DNA of 61,150 nt, counting the filler, from Basidioascus undulatus (taxonomy: Eukaryota), in NCBI GenBank assembly GCA_000826855.1. It is 9 parts of 9 records of this genome, joined end to end, with 100 filler letters (N's around TTAATTAATTAA, not from the genome) between each part and the next. Parts side by side here need not be neighbours in the genome. Positions count along the whole stretch, not along the records: positions 1 to 24,812 come from JTLS01000230.1; 8 more parts are not named here. One strand, given 5' to 3'. The notes beneath the pieces were generated by a model. The model saw only the letters and a list, made by a program, of their open reading frames with translations, was not told where the DNA came from and did no database searches. Numbering within the stretch: position 1 is the first letter of the stretch; every line of letters starts with the position of its first letter. Shown piece after piece: positions 9,006-55,739 of this stretch. Both the position numbers and the translations under genes were made by a program.

Positions 9006-9216
9006 AGATTTCTTGTAATTAACAGCAACCATATACCCATAATCATATACTGTAATCATACAGCGGTGAGAGGCTGTCGAAGCCCGCCAGATTGCGCTGA
9101 CTGCGCTTGTAACCAGCTCAATGCGCTGATCGACACAATCGAGTGTGTAAACTAGCACTGCAAGAAAGGTCAAAGAATTTTTATCCATTTCAATCTACAT
9201 TAGCTGCCCGCCCCGC

Positions 9217-10182
9217 TCAAGCCTCGATGTCCTTGCTCTCCACCACAGACGCGATCGCGTCCGCGAGCTCGTGCAGGACGACCTCGGTCGTGAACTCGCC
9301 CTTGACGGTGGACTTGCCGTCATAAGACGGGATGTCGCGGTCGCCGATGCCGTCCTTGACGACCACGACGTCGTACCCGAGCTGCCATCGCCCGAGCAGA
9401 ACGCTGTGAGTGGCGCTGCTGCAGAGCGGAGTGAACTGGGGAAGCGTAAGCGCACCTCGAACCCGCTCCGGGCGGTGCCGGTGATGCAGACGTGCGCCAT
9501 GTAGCCTACCAGGACTATGGAGGAAACCAGGTCAACACGGGAGGCGTCCCCAAGCGCGAGTTGCGCAAAGGGAGAAGACGCACCGATCTGCTTCTTCCCC
9601 TTCTGCTGCAGGTACTCGTGCAGGTCCGTGCCCGTAAAGCTCGAGGGAGCGTGCTTAATGATGGACTTCTCGTTCTCTGCTCTCCCCGAAACAAAGCTCT
9701 CAGCTCAACCCGAGCTTGAGGCCTTGCCTGGCCACCCGCACACAACGCACCCTTGAGCGTGATCCCGTCGAACTCCTGGAACTTGTCGCCGGTGGGGTCA
9801 AACACGGGCGCGCCTGGGGCGGTAGAATGTTGGATCTGCTCATTTCCACCCCGTCAAGCGATGCACACACTAAGGGAGGGAGAGAGGAACGGAAGGGACG
9901 AACGTGGATGACCTCCCCACCCGCACTCCTGAACTTCTCGATCACGTCGATGATGACCTTCCTGCTCGAGTCGTAGTTCGAGACCGCCAGCCCGCCCCCA
10001 GGCGCGTACTCTTTCTGTTCCCCCAAGACAACCATCAACCAAGCATGAGCTGCCTTGTTTCGTGCAGCACCTCAAGCGATAACCCGCACCTGCGCATCAA
10101 CGACCAGCAGCGCGGCGTTGAACACGTTCACCTGCGAAGGCTGGAGGCCGATCGTCTGGCGGAAGGACTTGGGGAGGGACAT
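9217..10182 (-). CDS. Isochorismatase/cysteine hydrolase family protein
   Basis: Spliced [16 protein letters not shown]...[16 protein letters not shown]...VIHIQH...[14 protein letters not shown]...[35 protein letters not shown]. The D, K and C catalytic residues are present. Confidence 0.92.
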
Positions 10183-13028: not shown

Positions 13029-13155
13029 TCGGTCTGCTGCATAAGTCTCTGGAGTGGGGTGCGGGAAGCGCTCGGACGCAAGACTCATTGAAATTGAACC
13101 GAAGCCCATGGCTCGTACACCTACACCACCCAATCCCTCCAACTTTGTATCCACA

Positions 13156-14636
13156 TCACTCCGGAAACTCAACCACCAGCTCCCCCAGCTCCCTCTTCTC
13201 CCCCTTACTCTCCAACCCCGCCTGCAAAAACGCCAAGTCCCTGAGCGCCTCCCTCGGGTCGCCCACATCCTCCCTCTCGCTCACGCCCTGTCCCTGTCCC
13301 TGTCCCTTCCCCGCCCGTGCGCGCTGCACACGCTCCACGAACAGGCGCAGCTCCTCGCGCACGCCGTCGCCATTCTCGTGCGTCTCTTCGGTTGTCGTTT
13401 TGCCGTCGGCGGAGGTGAGGCGGAGGGTTGTCTGACTGCGCGAGCGGGAGAGACGCAGCTGGCCGGAAGAGCCGGTTAGGAGGAGGGTTTGCGGGTCGGG
13501 GGACGGGGCGGAGAAGGAGAGCTGGAATGTCTGTTGGGGGGGTGGGTCAGCACGTCAGTCGCCGAGGGACAGGGAAGAGTGGAGAGGGGAGTGAGGAGAG
13601 GAGGGTGAGAAGGCAGGAAACGCACCCCCGACACGCCATCCTCGCACTGGACCGACGCGTGCAGCGTGTCGTGCGGGGCGAGGTGCGGCGCGTTCAGCGT
13701 CGCGTAGGCGGAGAGGCGCGCGGGCGAGGAGGGGAGTATGGTGCGCAGGAGGGAGGCATAGTGAACGCCGCCGTCGAGGAGGAAGCCGCTGATTGTCCAG
13801 AAAAAAGCCTATGAGTTATTTCAATCGAAGATGGTTAGGAAGTCGGAGCGTACCCTGTTCGAGGGGAGGAGCGTCAGTGAGGAAGAAAGGAGGAGGGGGG
13901 GGAGAGAGAAGGCGGACCTTGGTACTCAGGTTTCTTGCGCCATTCAGTCTTGTAGTACTTCCCATCTTCTCCCACATTCATGAGCGCCTGGAGCGCAAAC
14001 GTCCGGACGTCCCCGATCTTTCCCTGCTGCACCAGCTCCCTCGCCCTGCCCATCACACGCATGTCAGCTTCAGCATGTTGTCCTCACACTCTCCGAGAAA
14101 TTAAGACGCACCTAACGAACCCCCTCTCCGTCTCAAAGTTCTCCGCGACCCTCCACACCAGCCCGTGCCTCGCATAAACCGTCCGGTACTCCTTAATCAG
14201 TTCCGTCGCCGCCCCAACATCCTGCGCAACAGGCTTCTCGCTCAGCACGTGCTTCCCCGCGTTAAGCGCCTGGATGATCACCGCCGGCTGGGCGGGGATG
14301 GGCAGCGCGATGATGACGAGGTGGATGTCCTTGCGGCCGAGAAGATCGGCGAGGCCGGAGGGGCCCGAGTAAGGCTCGGGAAGGGGGAGCGTAGGGTGGG
14401 TGGAGGAGATGTAGGTGAGGAGGGAGGTGGTGCTGCTGGGGGTGCGGGAGTATATGGCCAGGAGGGAGAGGGTGGAGGAGAGGGTGGAGAGCGCGGGGAG
14501 ATGCGCTGAGGATGGAGGGTAAGCTCGTTAGGGAAGGGGAAGACGGAAGGGAGAAGGACCAGCCTTCTTTCACGAAGATGCCTGCGCCGATGAGGGCGAC
14601 TCCCAGCTTCTCGGTGTTTTGAGTGGTGGAAGCCAT
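13156..14636 (-). CDS. Gfo/Idh/MocA family NAD(P)-binding oxidoreductase; contains a 1-nt exon at 13854
   Basis: Spliced LGVALIGAGIFVKEAHLPA...ALNAGKHVLSEKPVA...WRVAENFE...KYYKTEWRKKPEYQGGFLLDGGVHY...PREALRDLAFLQAGLES. Confidence 0.9.
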
Positions 14637-15356
14637 AATATTTCTTGACATCAAGGCTTTTGAAAAGCTGAAAAGAGTAGGTAACGCAAGGGCAAGGAGA
14701 TTGCAAGGCAAAGCGACGTCATTTGGACATCCGTATCGGTTTTGCGTATTCACCTTGCTCCGAAAGGCTGGACAGCCTCCACCCCACGTGTTCCTTCGCG
14801 GTTCCTCGTGTTCCTGTATTCGATTTGAGCTTCAACAGACTTGTTTTCTCTTTGCTGAGGACGAGAACATGCCTCTGCGCCCTCTTTGTATTATCCAGGT
14901 GTTGTCTTCCCAATCAACTGCGCCGCATCCCTACGATTCGAGTGTAGTGATAGTGATCGTCGTCAGAGCCCAGACGGCGTCAACATTTGACGTCAAAGGC
15001 TGTCAGCTGCGCAATGCGGCCCGAAGTTCCTCTCTCTTCCCCTTCCCCTTCATTTCCTTCCTCCTTTCTTCCGCCAGCAACATCCCCAACGACAACACAC
15101 CGGTACGCGCCATCCGACTGACGACGCAGATGTGTACACAGTTCGCAGCTAGGGGGCCTGGAAGTCGCAAGCGCGCTGGGTGACTGACAGGGGTTGGTGC
15201 GGCAGCAAGTTCAGTGCACACACAAACGGAAGCCGCCGCACAGCCCCATTTTTTGGGACCGCGACGGCTCGCTCCACCGCTCTCGCTTGCACTTCGACTC
15301 TTCTTCCACCTTCAACACCGTTCTCCCCGTCGATCAATCCTTCCTCCTTAAACACA

Positions 15357-17313: not shown

Positions 17314-19904
17314 ATGATGGCCGACACGACAACCGTGCCCGCGCAGGGCGTCAAGACCTCCAAGTGCGTTTCGTTAGGAAGGGAGAAGGGGCATGGGGAA
17401 GGGGTGGTTGACGCTGGGTTGGGCGTCGCAGTGTCCCTGGGTTCGCGAACCCCCCGCTGCCGATGGATGGGAATGGGTACTTCTCCAACGTGTGTACTTA
17501 CTCCTCTTGCAGAAAAAGCGCATCGTACTGAGGAAGCATGGATGGGGAATCGCAGTACCAACTTGCTGCCCTCGTCCTCGGGATCCCGTACCTCGTGAAG
17601 CGCTCTATCCCGTACTTCTCCACGGGGCTCAAGACGTACATCTTCCTGGTCCTCGTTCTCGGCTTGCCGATCACGATCGCGTACTGGACGCTCATGTCCA
17701 CGTACGGCCCGCGCAAGAACGAGAAGGTCATCCCCCCCGGGCGGGATGTCTCGCACTACCTCGACATCAAGGACGTGGAACTCAAGCGCGAGCACGAGGG
17801 AAAGAACAAGATCAACATGCAGGTGTTCCATGATGCGTTCTTTGATGGGAAGATCGACGTTAAGGGTCCGTAGCGCGCTGGGTTTGGGAGACGCAGAGGT
17901 GGTAGTCAGAGGAGGCTGACTGTGCGGTGGGGGATGGACGGACAGGCGACATGCTCGACGTCCTGGAGTACCGCCACGACTGGGCCAAGTTCAACTTTAC
18001 GCCGGAGCTTTTCAAGTATGTCTTGACGCAAATGCTCCCCGAGGTCATCATGCACTCCAAGAGCCAGGACGAGGAGCAGGTCCGGGACCACTACGACCGT
18101 GCGCCTTCCGGTCCTTCCTTTGCTGGAGGAAGCACGGGCTGACATTTGGGAGGGCATCTGCTTGCCTCATTGTGTAGGGGGTGACGACTTTTACGAGTGG
18201 TGCGTTTTCAGCTCGCAGCCCTCGCAACCGAATGCGCGCTGATAGCAGTGTCTTCGCACAGGTTCCTCGGCCCTCGCATGATCTACACGTCCGGCGTCGT
18301 GCGCGACATCACGCGCGAGGAGACGCTCGAGGAGCTGCAGGACAACAAGCTCGCGCTCGTGTGCGAGAAGCTCGACCTCAAGCCCGGTGAGAAGCTGCTC
18401 GACATTGGGTGCGTTCTCCTTCTCCCATCTTCGCAACTGTGATCTAACGCATCAGAATCTGACATTGGGGGCTTGCGGGATGGGACAGCTGCGGCTGGGG
18501 CACCCTCGCGGCGTACGCGGCCAAGAACTTCGGCGTCGACGCGACGGGCATCACCCTCGGCAAGAACCAGACCAAGTTTGGCAACCAGCGCATCAAGGAC
18601 AACGGCGTCTCGCCTGAGCAGGCTCGCATTCTCTGTGCGTACACCCGTTTTCCTTCTTCCTGCCCCTACACCGGAGATGCCTGACGCTGAGATCTGAATT
18701 GATGCAGGCATGGACTACCGCGAGATCCCCCGCACCCCCGGCACGTACAACAAGATCGTTTCGCTCGAGATGGCTGAGGTGTGTTCACTGCACAGCCGTA
18801 CCCTCTCTTCCATTCGACTGCCGGGTACTGACCGAGATGGGCATCGCAGCACGTCGGCATCCGCCGCTACCAGTCCTTCCTCCGCCAGGTGTACGACCTC
18901 CTTGACGACGACGGCATCTTCGTCCTTCAGGTCGCCGGTATCCGCCCGCACTGGCAGTACGAGGACCTGATCTGGGGTCTCTTCGTGCGTCTCGTCTTCT
19001 TGCTCTTTCCCTCGACCCCTCGCACGCTGCGGTGGCTGATTCGGACATGCTACGCAGATGAACAAATACGTACGGACTTAGCTCATGCGTTGCAAGAACG
19101 CAAGAGCCGATGTGCTGATACGATTCGCTCGCAGGTCTTCCCTGGTGCCGACGCTTCCTGCGCGCTCAATTGGGTCATTGGCCAGGTGCGCGCAGCCCCC
19201 AATGTGACTCCGCCCACTGTGCATGCTGAGTACAATATTGCCTTCCAGGTTGAGGCTGCCGGCTTCGAAGTCAAGGAGATCGATGTTCTCGGTGCATTCG
19301 CCTACCCAGGTCGCTCCGGGCCAGCGTGCTGATGTTTCGCGCTTTTTGGCAGGCGTTCACTACTCGGCGACCATCTTCCGGTGGTACAAGAACTGGCTCT
19401 CCAACGTGCGTTGTAGGCCGCTCTTTGGGAGGTGGGCACAGCATTGACATGCGACGTGCGGGGCTTTTACAGAAGGAGAAGGTCATCGCCAAGTACGGCG
19501 AGCGATGGTACCGGATCTGGGAGTACTTGTAAGCCCTGTTTGCCCTGTTCGACCGCCCGATGTCTCAACTGAACTAATACATTTCTCTCCCTATAGCGTG
19601 CGTCAAAACCATACACTATGATGACAGTTGTATGGAATGTTCGAGCTGACACTGCGGCCCATGTATAGCTCGCGTCCTCGACCATCACCTCCCGCCAGGG
19701 CGGCGCGTCCGTCTTCCAGATCACGCTCCACAAGAACATCAACGGTTTCCACCGCATCAACGGCGTGCCCTCCCACCCAGGCATCGTCACCAAGAAGCCT
19801 GTGTCCGAGTACTCGTGCGTCAACTGCAACTCAGCTTCACCTCTCCCACTCCATCTCCTGCTTGAGTATCTAACGGGTATTGCCTCTACAGCTCGATCCT
19901 CTAG
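17314..19904 (+). CDS. Sphingolipid C9-methyltransferase (cyclopropane-fatty-acyl synthase family), many exons including a 12-nt exon and a 1-nt exon at 19597
   Basis: Spliced NPPLPMDGNGYFSN...HSKSQDEEQVRDHYDRGDDFYEWFLGPRMIYTSG...LLDIGCGWGTL...IVSLEMAEHVGIRRY...WGLFMNKYVFPGADAS...RIWEYFLASSTITSRQG...HRINGVPSH. Confidence 0.93.
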
Positions 19905-30850: not shown

Positions 30851-32722
30851 ATGGCCAATCCAGCATCCACCTCCTCTTCCTCAGCGCGCAAGCGCAAGCG
30901 CAGCGGCGAGTCTACCCTCACTCACTCACACAGCGCGCACGTGCACGCGCACGCGCCACCTGTCGCGGCGCTCAAGACCAAGCCCAAGGGCGGGGAGCGG
31001 TCCCGCTATTTCGGGCATGAGGATGGCGATGAGGAGGGTGGAGAGGATGATGAGGAGACTCTGATGTGGAGTCCGACGGAGGCGGGTCACGCGAATGCGC
31101 GGGACAAGGGCAAGGGGCGCGCGGCGGGAGGTGGGGATGAGAAGGACGCGCTGGCCAGGGAGGTCGAGCGCATGAAGAAGGAGATCGCGTTCAAGGACGC
31201 GCTCATTACGCGGCAGACGGACAGTGAGTCGCGCCCTCTCTTGATGGCTGGCGTGGACGCGGACGCTGATGGGGGGGGGTTCCCGCGACCAGCTCTGAGC
31301 CAGATCGAGTGGGTAGAGCACCTCTTTCCTTGTGGTGTCGAACATGCTGACTCGCTGTTTCTAGCTCCGCACTGCACTGCTCAATCTGCCTAGAGTACAT
31401 GTCCGACCCCTTCTCGTACGTCCACCATCTCTTGTCCCCAACACCCTCACTCACCCACTACCTCCCCAGCCTCTCCTGCGGCCACGTCGCCTGCTACACT
31501 TGTCTGCGCTCTTGGCTTACGCGTCCCTCCGCGGAAGACCCTCCCGACGAGCAGCACCGTCCGCATGGGCACGCCCCGCGGCGCAACAAGGTATGCCCCT
31601 CGTGCCGGGCGCCCGTGCGCGCGCGCCCCGCCGAGCTCTTCCTCGTCAAGGACCTCGTGGGCCTATCTGCCGCGTTCCAGGGCGAGTCGGGGCTCGTCGA
31701 GGGCGCGGAGGTGCGCGAGCCGGGGAGGAACCCGTGGGAGGGCATCTTTGGGGAGGATCGCGCGGGGAGGGCGCTGTTTGATGAGGAGGACCGGATTAGG
31801 CGGTGCGTTTTGTGCACGCATGAGATCACCAATGGGGTCTGCACGAACTGGTGGGTCATTTTCCCGTCTCGTCTTTCTGCGGCGAGGCGCGGGATCTGAG
31901 CTGATGGGGTGGTGCGCGGTTCCGCAGCGGGGAGGAGTACTCGGACTCCGAAGACGGGGACGGGGACGGCTCCGAAATAGACGACATCCATTACCTGAAT
32001 AACCTCGTCCTGGGCGACCCCGCCGAAGACGAGATGGGGGCGCACGAGCTGCTCGGCTTCCTCGGCCCGCACCACGAGGGCGCGTACTACTCGGGCGAGG
32101 ACGAGGACTGGGGGGATGAAGAGCAGCCCAACTCGTCCGACGAGGACTTCATCGACGACGGTCCTGCTGAGCCGGAGCGTGAGCCCAGGGCACGCGAGCG
32201 CCGGGAGCGCGCGTTCCGCGCTGCGATGCGGCGGCGGCGTGCGGAGCCGGAGGAGGAGGAGGAGGAGGGCAGCGCGGAGGACGACGACTCGGAAGTGCAG
32301 GTTGTGGGCGGGCGCCATAGGCGGCTTAGGCATGGGGTTGTGGATGCTGAGGCTGAGGAGAGCGGGAGCCAGGACGGGGAGGGCAGCCGCGGGGGTGAGG
32401 AAGACATGTGCGTCTGCTCTCCCTCCTCCCTGTCATTCTCCCGACTAAAATGACTCCCACGCAGCTATGGCGAGGACGACTTCCTCCCCTCTCGTTCCTC
32501 CTCCCGCCACCGGCGGCGGCGCGCCGCCTCGCCGTCCTCCTCGCCCCCGCACTACCCCGTCCCCGGCGCGTACATGTCCGAGGACTCAGACTCCGAGCGC
32601 GCGGGCGGGTACGCGTACGCGGCCGAGCCCGCCTGGCGCGGGATGGACGACGCCGCGGAGTTTTCGTCTGAGGAGGAAGAGGAGCCGGAGGAGGACGAGG
32701 AGGTGGGCGTGCGGAGGGTGGG
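30851..32722 (+). CDS. RING-finger E3 ligase with a second C4 finger and acidic tail (Psh1-like); 3' end truncated
   Basis: LHCSICLEYMSDPFSLSCGHVACYTCLRSW...CPSCRAPV, then RRCVLCTHEITNGVCTNCG and a D/E-rich region; includes a 16-nt exon. Confidence 0.8.
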
Positions 32723-41601: not shown

Positions 41602-44262
41602 CCCGCGCGTGGGAATAGGTGGGCAAGAGAGAGGGTATTGACAGGAGAGAGAGATGAAGTTGAAGTTGAAGTTGGAAGTTGGGAGAGCAGGGTTACGACT
41701 CGTGTGCGTGCGATGTGCTGCGCTGCCGCCGATACGCGACGCCACTTGGCGTCGTCGAAACCCTGTCTTCCTTCCCTACATCCTTCGTGTTTTGGTTGGC
41801 CCAGCAACGAGCACACCTGTGTATCTCCTATCGCTCTTTAGGAGTGTCATGTCGCTCACCCGAACTCGACATCGATGTAGGTCACTCGCAGTCATCCCGC
41901 GCCTACCCATCGACGCTCGTCACTCAGCTCATGTCGCTCGCTTCTCATACCACCTCGCATCAACTCTTTCTCTTCATCTTTCCAATCTCTTACCATAATC
42001 GCTTGTCCTTATAAACTGACCCACCTTCTTATACACCGCCTCTTCAGATCTCCAGCAAGCGCAACATCTCACCTCGCTTACTTGCGCCTGTCCAGTGCCC
42101 GCCCTCGCCCTCTCGCTTCCTTCGAGCCCTATCGATCTGGACCCCGCTCGCAGCCATGCTCTTCCAGCGAAGGGTTAAGCGGGGCCCCCGGGCCTTTCTT
42201 CCAGTTCAGAAGCCTCGGAGCGCATTCGGTCGAAGACTGCGGCTGCGGGCGGATGGGATGGCAGCGGCGTTCTTCTCGGCAAGGCTCGGGGTGCCGATGC
42301 CGGTGCCCATGGGCAGAAGAAGCAAGGCGGTTTGCGTCGGATAGCTCAGCACAGGCCGGGTTGTGGAAGGCGCGGGGACGCGTAGGGCAGTTGTTGGTGA
42401 CCATGAGGTGGGTGTGGCACGCAAATCCTCCCTTTCTTCCTTCGACCTTCCCCGGTGCACTGCCGCTTATTTCAGGGTGGTACCCAGACGCGTGAGTACC
42501 TAGGTGGACTCCTATCATTTCAGTGATGCGTTTGTTCCTTCCGAAGTCGCGCGCCTTTGCAGCAGGGAGCTGCTTCTGTCGCGGGCGAAGATTGGACAGC
42601 AGGTACCTTCTGTGAGTCACTTGTTTCATATACCCCCTGCACCCAGCTGAAAGAACCTTCCCTTTCCCTGTACTAAAGCAGCCCGTAAACCCTTGCCGCT
42701 CTGGCCAACCGCAGTACGACCGTTCCGAGTCTCTGAAGCGGCCTTCCTTCATATGCGCAGTGGCAGACTTCATTGATCCATCGTCGTTCTCATCGTGCGC
42801 ACTTGATCGGAGGGCTCCATCGTTCTCCGCTAACCCCCCCCCCCCCCNGGCTCACCGTCCGCTCTCGAGCGCGACGTCCACTTTCCCTCAGCATCTCATC
42901 TCGTCTCCCGCCTCTGGAAAGCTATCTAGCGACCCACGACCCAAAACTTTCGGTGTTTGTCTTTACATCTTGACATTGACCGCCCTGCTCTTGACCAAAG
43001 CTCAAACGCGTCACATTGCCTTTCCTTGCTCTCTCTCTCGCCGCTGGCAGCTTTATTCTCTCCGGTCTAGACTACCAATGTGAACTCGAGAAGTACACCA
43101 CGTCGCATACTGCATTCTATCCGCTGATATAGGCGCCTTTGCCACGCTCGTTTCTCTCCCCGCTTTTGAACCAGCTCAGGCCTGCCGTTTCTCTATTCTC
43201 TCGGCGCCTTACGGCCTGCGCGGTGTGTTTAAACATATAACGGTTCAAGAGGGGCTTCAGGGCAGAGGCGAGACAATAGTTGGGGAAATGCAGGGCGGTC
43301 GTTGGCGGGCGGAGAGCGGCGGGGCGTGGCAGGCGCTGGTGCTGTCGCAGGGAGGCTCGAAGCAGCGGAGGGCTGGACGTCCGTGGCGGCCGTATGTAGG
43401 CGGGGATGGGGTTCATCGGTCAAATCACGCTGCACTCTTTCCGTCAGTTGTTTGAGCGCAGTTTCAAGCGACACTGCAATGAACGCATCAACGCAGCCTG
43501 TCTGTTCCGCTCCTTCTGCTCGTACGTCTCGCTCGCCATACTGGGCATCATTCGAGGTAAAGTTGCGCTCTCACTCGAAAATGCAAGGGTAGCAGCCTCG
43601 GCGTTGGGCGGTTTGGTTCCTGAGAGGTCCGGGTTGCAGTCATCTTCCTCGTCCTTCCCAATCTGGCGCGCGATCTCGAGCGCCGGCTCGACCGTCCTCA
43701 ACAACCGAGGCATCTCCAATTGGTTCTTTTGCACTTTTCTCGCAACTATTTGTTCTCGGCGAGGAACTACTCGTGCGCGAGGTAGAGGTCTGCATAATGT
43801 CGTACGTCAAAAAGAGCTGCTCGTCGACGAGCAGCTCGCTTGCGCCGCCTTCTTGTCTCTTAACTGCAACTTCGAGAGGTCTCCACGCAGCGCCTGATGC
43901 TCTCCCAAGAGGCCCTAGTTCTCGTCCAAGCACCCTTCTGTTGGACAGCCCTCTCTCAGGCGTCAGTGCTGCCGACAGGTTCGAATCCTCGAGAGGTCAG
44001 ATCTTCCAGACTCACTGGCGTGCGCTCTCCGCCATCGATATCCATCTCGTTGCCTGGCGAGTACTACGCAGCTTCGTTTATTTGGCTGTAATGCCTGGTG
44101 TCTATCCCACAAAAGCCCTCTCAGACGAGCCTCAACAACACAGCTCCAGGCGACAGGCGGCAACAATCGTCAAATCGTCAAATCGTGTGCCAAGCGGAAC
44201 CGGCCTGCCGGCGTAAATAAAAATGAAAGAGTCGGGAAGCGTCCTTTGTGAGACCGTCTGCT

Positions 44263-45636
44263 CTACTTGGAGTCGCTCGAGGCCCTCCCTTTCGGAACCA
44301 TCCAGAGCCCAGCCTGAACGAGCTTCAACCCAGCAACCACCGCCATGCCCCCTCGTAGGCCCGCGGGCGAGAGGGGGAAAGATTTGCCGATCCCTCCGCC
44401 AATGCAGAGAACAACAATGGCCAGTATACGGCTGTGATACACGTAGAAAGATATTAGCGTCTTTTAAATACCATAGAATATGTGGACTGATGCACAGGTT
44501 GCCGCCATGAACGAACTTCGGGGGACGCAGAGCGAAGAGGTAAGGATCGGATGCGATCTCTTGTGTAGAGCACATAGGCTCACATACGGCTCAAGGTGAC
44601 GGTGAATAAAACAGTCTGAATGGGACGTGTCAGTGCGAGATCGGAAAGGGCTCGTGAGCGGTAGACAACGACGCACAGTAGCGAAAGCGGGACTCGCTAC
44701 TTTTTGTGCCGAGATGGTCTGCAGGCCCATGCAGAAGGCAGCCTGCTCCATTCTCGCCCATAAGACAGGCTCCAACGCTCAACCACCCAACAGAAAGACG
44801 TACGCAGAATACAATAGCAGGGTACCGCAAGAACGACGGCTGCTCGTCTTCCGGGCCCGCCAGCAGAAGGGCTGCAGCTATCCACAGCACAGCGCTCTGC
44901 GCGATGCTGGTCAGAATGAGCCACGCTCGCCGACGATCTTGAAGCATGCGCCCTCCCTGAGCTCCGAAGAAAGAACCCAATACGAACGCCACGACTGAGA
45001 GGATGTGCTCGAACATCACGAGCGGCTGTGGCTCAGCGCCGGGAAAGATGAATTGGGCGCTGGTGGAAAAGAAATTAGAGACAGGCAGGATATCGAAAAC
45101 GTGAGCCACTTGCAGGCTACCAGACAATTGAATCAGGTTCCTGGAAGTTCGAATCGTCAGTTGAGGATGGTTCAAAGCCGATAGTGGACAGGCTTGACGT
45201 ACCCAGTCTGGAATCCAACCCAGGTCTGTGTCTTGTGGTACATCAGTGCGTCGATTATGCCTGTAAAGGGAAAAAGTTGCCATATGAGATAGAGGAAGGT
45301 TGGTCAATCTCTCAATCCGCCTGAATAGTGTATTGCGCACCGGTCATGAAAACCTGCCATGCTAACGGCACGGTCGCGCCTGTGTGCTCAACGTGCTCAT
45401 CCAACCTATACCCGGATGGCCCAGCTGTTCAGCACATGGATAAGACCGCAATGCAGAGCCCTCAGTACTTACCGCTGCCATAACCAGCTCCCTCGCCTCA
45501 AAGGAACCTCGAACTCGCTCCCTGCATGTGTTCCCTTCTCCGCCGCGTCCACATCAGGGCCAACTTTGTCGGTGATGTCGGCCTCTTCAGGCCCAGCAAT
45601 CCTCAAGACGTTCTGTTGAAATGCGACCGAGCCCAT
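44263..45636 (-). CDS. DUF1275/YoaK family membrane protein
   Basis: Spliced VPLAWQVFMTGIIDALMYHKTQTWVGFQTGNLIQLS...SVVAFVLGSFFG...RRRAWLILTSIAQ...AAFCMGLQ...IASDPYLF...VVAGLKLVQAGLW. Confidence 0.88.
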
Positions 45637-54726: not shown

Positions 54727-55739
54727 TTGCCTCTCCCGTCGTCAAGCCCACCCTTCGTAAGCACGCTGAAAGGCGCCTCCAGGATCAGCCGAGCCTCCAG
54801 CGCGGTGTAAACCAGAAAGTGCGCGTCACCCTAACAACGTGCTCTTCCCCTGATTGACCATCGCAGCGTCAGAACAACGGCGTTTCTTGAGTGAAAGCAA
54901 GAATTCCTAGAGCACGCACCGCATCGACGTTGCCGCACACCGCCACCCGCACCTCCTGCACGAACTCTGCTCCCCACCCATCGCTCAGACCCCGTACCTC
55001 GCCGCAACGCGCCCCTTGCGGACGCACCAGGGCTCTCCGGTATTCGTCGTACGAGTACCCTCGTATACGCATGCCTCCCCTCGCCCGCAGTCCCCTCATA
55101 AAGCACATTGACCTTGCACGCCACCGTGTCCGCTAATGCGCGGAGGGCGTCCAGCGCGCGCGCGACCTGGTCGGGCGTCAGGACCGCCTTGGACGCGTCA
55201 CCGTCGCTCGAGGCGGGCGCCTCCGCCTCGTCCGGCGCCGCGAGAACGCGCGGCAGCGCGCCGAGCGAGACGAACACCTCCCCTCCGTGAAGGCGCACCT
55301 CCTGCTCGAGGAAGGAGCGCAGCGCCGCGTCGTCCGGCTCGGGACGTATCAAGTGATCCTGCGCGTTTCCTCCTCCTGCTTCAGACCCTACACCCTCTCA
55401 CATTTGATTCTGATCACTAAACCCAAACGCACCTGCAGCTCCTCAAGCGTGATCCGCTCGGCCTGCCCGCCCGCCACCGGCTCGCCCTCCTTCTCCGCCA
55501 GCGACAAGTCTGCGAGGGCAGCAGTGGGCGGCGCCTGCGCCTTATCCTTGGTCTTGTGCGCCTGCGCCGCCGCGGCCAGGTACGCCGCGTGGCCCTGCTC
55601 GCGCTGGGCCTTGAGCGCCTTCTCGTGCACGTCGGTGATTTCTGGGGTGCCACACGCCCACGCCAGCCTCAGCGTCTCCTCCCGGCGGTGCCAGGCTTGG
55701 GGGGGCAGTACCTTGTTGGAATGATCTTAACGTCGTCAT
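54727..55739 (-). CDS. GTPBP1: GTP-binding protein 1/2 (translational GTPase), 5' part
   Basis: Spliced EVRVAVCGNVDA|GKSTLLG|VLTKGGLDDGRGK, the GTPBP1-family P-loop; truncated at the linker. Confidence 0.88.

What the first reader, a model, noticed from the sequence alone, without database searches (positions are those of the whole stretch)
13789..13917. Second independent single-nucleotide exon (G, minus strand, position 13854) in the Gfo/Idh/MocA gene
Seen on the minus strand: TAC CAA G | GTCCGC...CTGAC...GAACAG | G | GTACGC...CTAAC...AATCAG | C GGC TTC CTC CTC GAC GGC GGC GTT CAC. The Gly codon G+G+C is assembled from three exons, restoring YQGGFLLDGGVH, the family's conserved segment. One long intron would frameshift it. 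The introns are 63 nt (13855-13917) and 65 nt (13789-13853). Inference: two such exons within 6 kb of one contig suggest 1-nt exons are a recurrent, under-annotated feature of this genome's splicing system. This is the best candidate for undescribed biology in the window.
Basis: partly seen in the sequence, partly recalled or inferred. Interest (0 to 1): 0.82.

Follow-up and report, generated by a model that had tools for sequence, protein, structure and literature searches.

The report
One-nucleotide exon in fungal oxidoreductase gene
A basidiomycete oxidoreductase gene very probably carries an exon only one base long between two ordinary short introns, a rare feature already reported in other fungi and one that breaks automatic gene prediction.

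Summary
On the minus strand, the upstream exon ends at 13918. A 63-nt GT..AG intron (13917-13855), a lone G (13854) and a 65-nt GT..AG intron (13853-13789) follow, and the next exon starts at 13788.

Including that G gives the motif PEYQGGFLLDGGVH. 101 of 120 homologues carry YQGGF[LIV]LDGGVH exactly. Of 136 canonical splice combinations tried, the 1-nt-exon model aligns best.

Both flanking introns fit the 58-95 nt range of 21 other introns in the window. A single span of 125-137 nt would not.

A second case is real too: C at 19597 (+ strand) in a sphingolipid C9-methyltransferase gene supplies a Phe found in 119 of 120 homologues. That gene also has 12-nt and 22-nt exons.

No transcript data could be obtained, so splicing is inferred, not shown. 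None of 22 related fungal loci shares the intron pair.

The "undescribed biology" reading fails. One-nucleotide exons are published for Arabidopsis APC11 (2015), Coprinopsis cinerea (13 exons in 13 genes, 2025) and Fusarium CYP621A (2026, also AG|G|GT in a Gly codon).

Verdict: a probably real new member of a known kind, of moderate interest.

The parts
13155..14636 (-). Gfo/Idh/MocA oxidoreductase gene, start to stop: 7 exons and 6 introns in my model, 377 aa
   Evidence: Pfam PF01408, PF02894 and PF22725 on separate exons. Model built by coordinates. Alignment to 15 homologues.
13918..14045 (-). Upstream exon, ending ...PEYQ plus the first G of the split Gly codon
13855..13917 (-). Intron A: 63 nt, donor GTCCGC, branch-like CTGAC 19 nt from the 3' end, acceptor CAG
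13854..13854 (-). One-nucleotide exon (G), the middle base of the Gly codon G+G+C
13789..13853 (-). Intron B: 65 nt, donor GTACGC, acceptor CAG. CTAAC lies 46 nt from the 3' end and ATAAC about 27 nt from it. An internal AG (CATAG) sits too close to ATAAC to be a likely acceptor.
   Evidence: The branch-site choice is my inference.
13626..13788 (-). Downstream exon, starting with C (third base of the Gly codon) followed by GFLLDGGVH...
14506..14563 (-). First intron of the same gene: 58 nt with a GC donor (GCTGGT), the only non-GT donor among 25 introns
   Evidence: The position matches an unspliced insertion in homologue P0001.
19597..19597 (+). Second one-nucleotide exon (C), completing TT+C = Phe in a sphingolipid C9-methyltransferase gene
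   Evidence: Phe is present at this site in 119 of 120 homologues.
19529..19596 (+). Intron upstream of the second 1-nt exon: 68 nt, GTAAGC...CTAAT at 19 nt...TAG
19598..19668 (+). Intron downstream of the second 1-nt exon: 71 nt, GTGCGT...CTGAC at 19 nt...TAG
18178..18199 (+). 22-nt exon of the C9-methyltransferase gene (encodes ..GDDFYE..)
19058..19069 (+). 12-nt exon of the C9-methyltransferase gene (MNKY)

Best explanation
G13854 is a genuine exon one nucleotide long. The Gfo/Idh/MocA pre-mRNA carries two complete, ordinary U2-type introns (63 and 65 nt) separated by that single G. Each intron has its own GT donor with G at +5, a branch-like motif and a YAG acceptor.

In fungi with short introns, the spliceosome recognises each intron as a unit, so exon length is not a formal limit (intron definition; established knowledge, recalled). 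The factors bound at the acceptor of intron A and at the donor of intron B would overlap on the RNA. I therefore infer that the two introns are removed one after the other, in either order. Once the first is gone, the G is simply the last or first base of a normal-sized exon. The base triplet before the intron B donor reads AGG whether or not intron A has gone.

The product reads ...PEYQ-G-GFLLDGGVH..., with the first Gly codon built from three exons. Skipping the G would shift the frame into early stops.

Shown: the sequence layout, the need for exactly one base, the fit to homologues and the typical size of both introns. Inferred: that splicing happens this way, and its order.
For: 1. Layout and coordinates.

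2. Exactly one residue is missing between the two exons by Pfam profile positions.

3. The motif is highly conserved. 101 of 120 homologues have YQGGF[LIV]LDGGVH, and 105 of the 111 that are at least 330 aa long have it or a close variant. The model aligns without a gap.

4. I enumerated 43 single-intron and 93 double-intron GT/GC..AG combinations. 28 were open and in frame. The 1-nt-exon model scores best at 282, against 271, 264, 264 and 255 for the next four.

5. 21 other introns in three genes of the window are 58-95 nt long (median 71). 24 of 25 introns have G at +5, 24 of 25 have a GT donor, and 25 of 25 have a YAG acceptor. The 63-nt and 65-nt introns fit this; spans of 125-137 nt do not.

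6. Only 6 of 100,000 simulated 129-nt spans carry a fitting YAG-G-GTnnG site with branch motifs on both sides.

7. There is an independent second case at 19597. Only the 1-nt exon gives Phe, which 119 of 120 homologues have. A junction shifted by one base would give Leu. With this exon, the gene model is 72-75% identical to Agaricomycete enzymes over about 460 aa.

8. The three gene models need no other frame repair across 25 introns.

9. There is precedent. Fusarium CYP621A has the same AG|G|GT arrangement in a Gly codon, supported by reads (PMC12940212, Results read). C. cinerea has 13 one-nt exons from long-read cDNA (PMC12230235, passage read).
Against: - There is no transcript evidence of any kind.
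- At this site the mRNA would be identical to that from a single 128-nt non-canonical intron (GT..CA or TC..AG).
- The intron pair is not conserved. All 22 related fungal metagenome loci encode YQGG on one uninterrupted piece, and no close relative was available.
- Intron B's best CTAAC lies 46 nt from the acceptor with an AG in between. A weaker ATAAC at about 27 nt has to be invoked.
- The pattern alone is not significant at window scale: simulated mean 0.62 sites, and 12 of 100 windows have two or more.
- The scan criteria were chosen after seeing these introns.
- The window contains N runs and two single N positions, so assembly quality is unknown.
Confidence: 0.87

Rival explanations
1. 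The assembly is missing one base at an exon edge, for example a GG that is really GGG at 13918/13919. The gene would then have a single canonical 129-nt intron, and the internal AG-G-GT would be a coincidence.
For: It would give the same protein. The window holds N runs and two single N positions, so it may be a draft assembly. A short homopolymer lies at the exon edge.
Against: It needs three things at once: an error at exactly this base, an intron 1.36 times the longest of 21 others, and a coincidence seen in 6 of 100,000 simulations. The same triple coincidence would be needed again at 19597 (49 of 100,000). About 3.2 kb of coding sequence in three genes needs no other frame repair.
Confidence: 0.04
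2. One non-canonical 128-nt intron (boundaries GT..CA or TC..AG) is removed in a single step, giving the same mRNA without any 1-nt exon.
For: The mRNA is identical, so a junction read could not exclude it (sequence logic).
Against: All 25 introns modelled here end in YAG and 24 start with GT. The length is outside the 58-95 nt range. It leaves the complete internal acceptor, donor and branch set unexplained. At 19597 the equivalent shifted junction would give Leu where 119 of 120 homologues have Phe.
Confidence: 0.03
3. A single GC..AG intron of 125 nt (donor GCCTTC at 13913, acceptor at 13789) is used, giving YQGPGFLLD with one extra Pro.
For: It is in frame and stop-free, and is the second-best model at 271 against 282. 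The gene's first intron already uses a GC donor.
Against: The donor lacks G at +5, which 24 of 25 introns have. Its length exceeds the maximum of 95 nt. None of the 106 homologues with a recognisable motif has an inserted residue there.
Confidence: 0.03
4. The upstream donor GTACCA at 13925 is joined to the acceptor at 13789 (137 nt), giving KKPDGFLLD and deleting Tyr-Gln-Gly. This could be the main form or a minor isoform.
For: It has canonical GT..AG boundaries and is in frame.
Against: It removes three residues of the most conserved motif. It scores 255 against 282 and loses about 11 bits against the best homologues. The donor has no G at +5, and 137 nt is far outside the length range.
Confidence: 0.02

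Closest known systems
One-nucleotide exon of Fusarium CYP621A P450 genes (Nelson and Syed 2026, PMC12940212; abstract and Results read)
   Same: In both, a single G lies between AG and GT and forms the middle base of a conserved Gly codon. In both, the apparent intron is about twice the usual length (139 nt against a median of 56 there; 129 nt against a median of 71 here), and the base is needed to keep the frame.
   Different: The Fusarium exon is conserved in 20 orthologues and backed by SRA reads. Here there is no transcript evidence, and none of 22 related loci shares it. The gene family and phylum also differ (Ascomycota there, Basidiomycota here).
Coprinopsis cinerea long-read annotation: 13 one-nt exons in 13 genes, and 1,165 gene models with internal exons of 15 nt or less (PMC12230235; passages read)
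   Same: Both are basidiomycetes with short introns in which ultra-short exons are a recurrent feature that breaks gene models. The window likewise shows 1-, 1-, 12- and 22-nt exons.
   Different: Those exons rest on full-length cDNA. The rate there is about 1 gene in 1,000, whereas this window holds two in 61 kb. I could not see which genes carry them there; the supplements were not consulted.
Arabidopsis APC11 single-nucleotide exon (Guo and Liu 2015, PMC4674806; abstract read)
   Same: A constitutive 1-nt exon between two canonical introns. It shows experimentally that a spliceosome can handle one.
   Different: It is in a plant, was tested with reporter constructs, and is in a different gene.
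Fungal stwintrons (spliceosomal twin introns; PMC5639578 and PMC5587772, abstracts seen in the search listing)
   Same: Two U2-type introns in direct contact, removed by consecutive splicing reactions.
   Different: In a stwintron the internal intron interrupts a donor, branch or acceptor signal of the external intron, and nothing stays in the mRNA. Here both introns have intact signals of their own and one base stays.
Recursive splicing at zero-length exons in Drosophila long introns (recalled, not looked up)
   Same: A 3' splice site is directly followed by a 5' splice site, and removal is stepwise.
   Different: No base is retained there and the introns are very long. A scan for AG directly followed by GT under the same criteria found 0 sites in the window.

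Membership tests
One-nucleotide exon (as in APC11, CYP621A and the C. cinerea annotation) | A single base lies directly between the AG of one intron and the GT of the next | tested here: met
   CAG|G|GTACGC at 13856-13848 on the minus strand
One-nucleotide exon (as in APC11, CYP621A and the C. cinerea annotation) | Each flanking intron is complete on its own: donor, branch-like motif, acceptor and a size typical for the genome | tested here: met
   63 and 65 nt against 58-95 nt for 21 others. G at +5 and YAG in both. Intron A has CTGAC at 19 nt. Intron B has only ATAAC at about 27 nt or CTAAC at 46 nt, which is weaker.
One-nucleotide exon (as in APC11, CYP621A and the C. cinerea annotation) | The base is required for the reading frame and for a conserved residue | tested here: met
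   Best of 136 splice combinations.
One-nucleotide exon (as in APC11, CYP621A and the C. cinerea annotation) | Transcripts contain the base | not testable with these tools
   No RNA run was listed for this stretch, and no genome is held.
One-nucleotide exon (as in APC11, CYP621A and the C. cinerea annotation) | Conserved in orthologues (as in 20 Fusarium species) | tested here: inconclusive
   0 of 22 fungal metagenome loci have an intron inside the Gly-Gly codons. However, all are only 42-52% identical on the query exon (L018: 59% on a partial match), and no close relative was found.
Stwintron | An internal intron interrupts the donor, branch or acceptor of an external intron, which becomes functional only after the first excision | tested here: not met
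   Both introns have intact GT and YAG ends before any splicing. Removing intron A leaves G+G, not a G+T donor (reading).
Recursive splice site (zero-length exon) | The acceptor AG abuts the donor GT, with no base kept in the mRNA | tested here: not met
   One base is kept. The k=0 scan found 0 sites in the window.
Gfo/Idh/MocA oxidoreductases | N-terminal NAD-binding Rossmann domain plus the C-terminal alpha/beta domain of the family | tested here: met
   PF01408 at E 6e-12 on exon 2. PF02894 and PF22725 on the two exons flanking the site, below or near the curated cut-offs when scored singly. Full-length alignment to 15 homologues.

The most novel reading that the evidence does not exclude
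This unplaced basidiomycete lineage may carry one-nucleotide exons at a density far above anything reported. The window has two in 61 kb, both in conserved housekeeping-type enzymes, next to 12- and 22-nt exons. C. cinerea has about one such gene per thousand. If that density holds genome-wide (hundreds of cases), the lineage would have lost any lower limit on exon size, perhaps through frequent intron gain right beside existing introns. It would then be a natural system for asking how a spliceosome orders the removal of two abutting introns.
Probability: 0.22. Interest if true: 0.6.

Novelty: new member of a known kind. Interest (0 to 1): 0.4.

Why it matters
Standard gene finders and RNA-seq aligners cannot place a 1-nt exon. 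They either break the gene or report a non-canonical junction. In the homologue set used here, database proteins are already truncated or lack 5-11 residues at this same motif because of small exons.

Each verified case adds to a very short list: one plant gene, one Fusarium P450 family and 13 C. cinerea genes. It also marks the extreme limit of exon size that intron-defined splicing tolerates.

Two cases in one 61-kb window suggest that homology-aware, micro-exon-aware annotation of this genome would recover more. It is not a new mechanism.

Tried and rejected
- Whole genome for a genome-wide scan: not held.
- RNA evidence: no RNA holder was listed for 13100-14700.
- Earlier findings of this scan: nothing for this genome, its look-alikes or these sequences. 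A word search gave only an unrelated organellar 8-nt exon.
- Close relatives: three protein searches and one metagenome scan found none. The best matches were 53% identity on Gfo exon 2 and 70% on a C9-methyltransferase exon. Conservation of the intron pair therefore could not be tested in near kin.
- Introner-like origin: blastn-short of all 20 introns against the window gave only self-hits and 13-17 nt chance matches.
- Window-level excess of AG-N-GT sites: not significant. The real window has 2 sites, the simulated mean is 0.62, 12 of 100 simulated windows have two or more, and the reversed sequence has 0. I replaced this with a conditional test; a first version of it timed out.
- A 2-nt exon candidate at 9775 (minus strand) from the scan: rejected on reading the isochorismatase gene, which needs only five ordinary introns.
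- Other scan candidates with exons of 5-29 nt: not followed up, apart from the 12- and 22-nt positive controls.
- Literature: a search for other wordings of '1-nt exon' found nothing relevant. The C. neoformans genome paper has no statement on minimal exon size in the passages searched.

Full report
**What is there**

The coordinates in the finding are right. On the minus strand an exon ends ...TACCAAG at 13918. Next comes a 63-nt stretch, GTCCGC...CTGAC...GAACAG (13917-13855), then a single G (13854). A 65-nt stretch follows, GTACGC...AATCAG (13853-13789), and the next exon begins CGGCTTC at 13788.

The gene is a Gfo/Idh/MocA oxidoreductase. Exon 2 matches PF01408 at E 6e-12. The two exons beside the site match the family's C-terminal domain models PF02894 and PF22725.

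Those Pfam matches also count the gap. The upstream exon reaches profile position 37 of PF02894 two residues before its end, and the downstream exon starts at position 41. Exactly one residue is unaccounted for: the codon split as G / ? / C.

**Gene model**

I joined exons by coordinates in a script. This gives a 1,134-nt open frame of 377 aa with six introns of 58, 66, 63, 65 and 95 nt plus the pair in question counted individually. The first intron has a GC donor.

With G13854 included, the protein reads PEYQGGFLLDGGVH. With one intron from 13917 to 13789 the frame shifts and meets stops.

Of 120 homologues (all fungal, mostly Agaricomycetes, 45-59% identical on exon 2):
- 101 carry YQGGF[LIV]LDGGVH exactly.
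- 106 carry it or a close variant.
- 105 of the 111 that are at least 330 aa long do so.

The model aligns to 15 of them with no gap at the site.

**All canonical alternatives**

I enumerated every GT/GC..AG combination in 13990-13740. This covered 43 single introns and 93 pairs enclosing an exon of 1-30 nt. I scored each open product against ten homologues. 28 were in frame and stop-free.

| Score | Model |
|---|---|
| 282 | 1-nt exon |
| 271 | Single GC..AG intron of 125 nt from 13913, adding a Pro inside the motif |
| 264 | Other constructs (two models) |
| 255 | Donor GTACCA at 13925 (137 nt), deleting Tyr-Gln-Gly |

Both are real alternatives but poorer. Neither donor has G at +5, both introns are far too long, and no homologue shows the resulting insertion or deletion.

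**Intron norms in this window**

I modelled two further genes:
- A sphingolipid C9-methyltransferase, guided by tblastn of homologues. The model is 72-75% identical to Agaricomycete enzymes over about 460 aa.
- An isochorismatase-family gene, read by eye and open in frame.

Leaving out the four introns in question, 21 introns measure 58-95 nt with a median of 71. Over all 25 introns:
- 24 start with GT.
- 24 have G at +5.
- 25 end in YAG.
- Most have a CTRAY-like motif 16-35 nt from the acceptor.

Introns A and B fit these norms. A span of 125-137 nt would be the longest intron seen.

Intron A is textbook, with CTGAC at 19 nt. Intron B is weaker. Its CTAAC lies 46 nt from the acceptor with an AG (CATAG) in between. 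I have to assume the ATAAC at about 27 nt is the branch site, which would put that AG too close to be used. This is inference.

**Chance**

The pattern alone proves little. A strict scan finds exactly two one-base sites in the window, the two discussed here. Markov-simulated windows give 0.62 on average, and 12 of 100 have two or more.

The relevant question is conditional. Given a 129-nt span where homology demands one extra G, how often does it hold a YAG-G-GTnnG that splits it into two 55-100 nt parts, each with a branch motif? The answer is 6 of 100,000 simulated spans, and 49 of 100,000 for the second site.

The criteria were fixed after I had seen the introns, and the branch pattern was widened to admit ATAAC. 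These numbers are therefore somewhat optimistic.

**The second case**

On the + strand, 5,743 nt away, the C9-methyltransferase exon ends ...TGGGAGTACTT at 19528. The next exon starts CTCGCG at 19669. Between them lie a 68-nt intron, a C at 19597 and a 71-nt intron. Both introns have textbook branch motifs at 19 nt.

TT+C gives Phe, and 119 of 120 homologues have Phe at that position. A junction shifted by one base would give Leu, so here the identity of the base matters.

Among 110 single-intron and 634 double-intron combinations, the six best models all use C19597. The best scores 262 against 237 for the next.

The same gene has a 22-nt exon (18178-18199) and a 12-nt exon (19058-19069). Each lies inside what first looked like an intron of 163 or 150 nt. 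In these genes every overlong apparent intron resolved into two normal introns around a tiny exon.

**Relatives**

No close relative was found. In 22 fungal metagenome loci, YQGG is encoded on one uninterrupted piece in every one, so none has the window's intron pair.
- Four loci are intronless across the motif and are probably transcript-derived.
- Eighteen have an intron right after Pro-Asp/Glu.
- In the loci I could read, this is followed by an 18-nt exon (YQGGFL) and a 15-nt exon (LDGGV) (the output was partly cut).

The motif is thus an old hot spot for tiny exons in Agaricomycetes, but the window's arrangement is its own.

Database proteins show the cost. Eight predictions read through into the intron after Pro-Asp, two skip 11 residues and two skip 5 residues at this spot.

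**How it most likely works**

Two complete introns are recognised independently, as expected where introns are short (intron definition; recalled). I infer sequential removal, because the complexes on the acceptor of A and the donor of B would overlap. Either order leaves workable signals. The three bases before the B donor read AGG before and after A is removed. Omitting the G would give a frameshifted message with early stops.

None of this could be tested. No RNA run was listed and no genome is held.

**Rivals**

- A one-base assembly error plus a true 129-nt intron needs an error at exactly this base, an outlier intron and the 6-in-100,000 coincidence. It needs the same again at 19597. Meanwhile about 3.2 kb of coding sequence in three genes needs no other repair.
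- A 128-nt non-canonical intron gives the same mRNA and can only be excluded by splicing intermediates or lariats.
- The GC-donor and GTACCA-donor models are discussed above.

Together I give the rivals about 0.12.

**Novelty**

This is a known kind.
- Arabidopsis APC11 has a tested 1-nt exon (PMC4674806, abstract).
- The C. cinerea long-read annotation lists 13 one-nt exons in 13 genes and 1,165 gene models with exons of 15 nt or less (PMC12230235, passages).
- Fusarium CYP621A has a G between AG and GT as the middle base of a Gly codon, inside a 139-nt apparent intron, with read support (PMC12940212, abstract and Results).

It is not a stwintron, because no splice signal is interrupted and a base is kept. 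It is not a zero-length recursive site either.

What remains notable is two such exons in one 61-kb window, against roughly one gene per thousand in C. cinerea. Whether this reflects the genome or luck cannot be told from one window.

Noticed in passing
window 19597 (+), with introns 19529-19596 and 19598-19668: A second one-nucleotide exon (C) in a sphingolipid C9-methyltransferase gene. It completes a Phe codon present in 119 of 120 homologues. Here the mRNA alone (TTC against TTG) would decide the case.
   Followed up: yes
window 18178-18199 and 19058-19069 (+): 22-nt and 12-nt exons in the same methyltransferase gene. Each is hidden inside an apparent intron of about 150-160 nt and is needed to encode GDDFYEW and MNKY.
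   Followed up: yes
window 14506-14563 (-): The first intron of the Gfo gene has a GC donor (GCTGGT) and is 58 nt long, the only non-GT donor among 25 introns. Its position coincides with an unspliced insertion in the database protein P0001.
   Followed up: partly
window 13795-13809 (-), inside intron B: The stretch just before the intron B acceptor matches the start of the next exon at 11 of 15 bases and would encode GFFLD against GFLLD. It could be a decayed tandem duplication linked to the origin of intron B, or chance in a pyrimidine-rich tract (my rough estimate is a few per cent).
   Followed up: partly
Proteins P0003, P0005, P0015, P0022, P0033, P0036, P0069, P0074, P0106, P0110, P0112, P0115; loci L001-L022: Public gene predictions of this oxidoreductase in Agaricomycetes are truncated or lack 5 or 11 residues exactly at the YQGGFLLDGGVH motif. 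The DNA of related loci shows 18-nt and 15-nt exons there.
   Followed up: partly
window 24813-54659: Paired runs of 44 N separated by 12 bases recur about every 3.9-4 kb (nine pairs), and there are single N positions at 42848 and 58490. These may be masking or assembly gaps. None lies near the finding.
   Followed up: no
window 9198-10130 (-): An isochorismatase-family gene with five ordinary introns of 68-75 nt. A 2-nt-exon candidate from the scan at 9775 is a false positive.
   Followed up: yes
window, several sites listed (for example 31293-31308 +, 45126-45140 -, 54836-54849 -): Further candidate exons of 5-29 nt that pass the same intron criteria. None was checked against homologues, and some are probably chance.
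   Followed up: no
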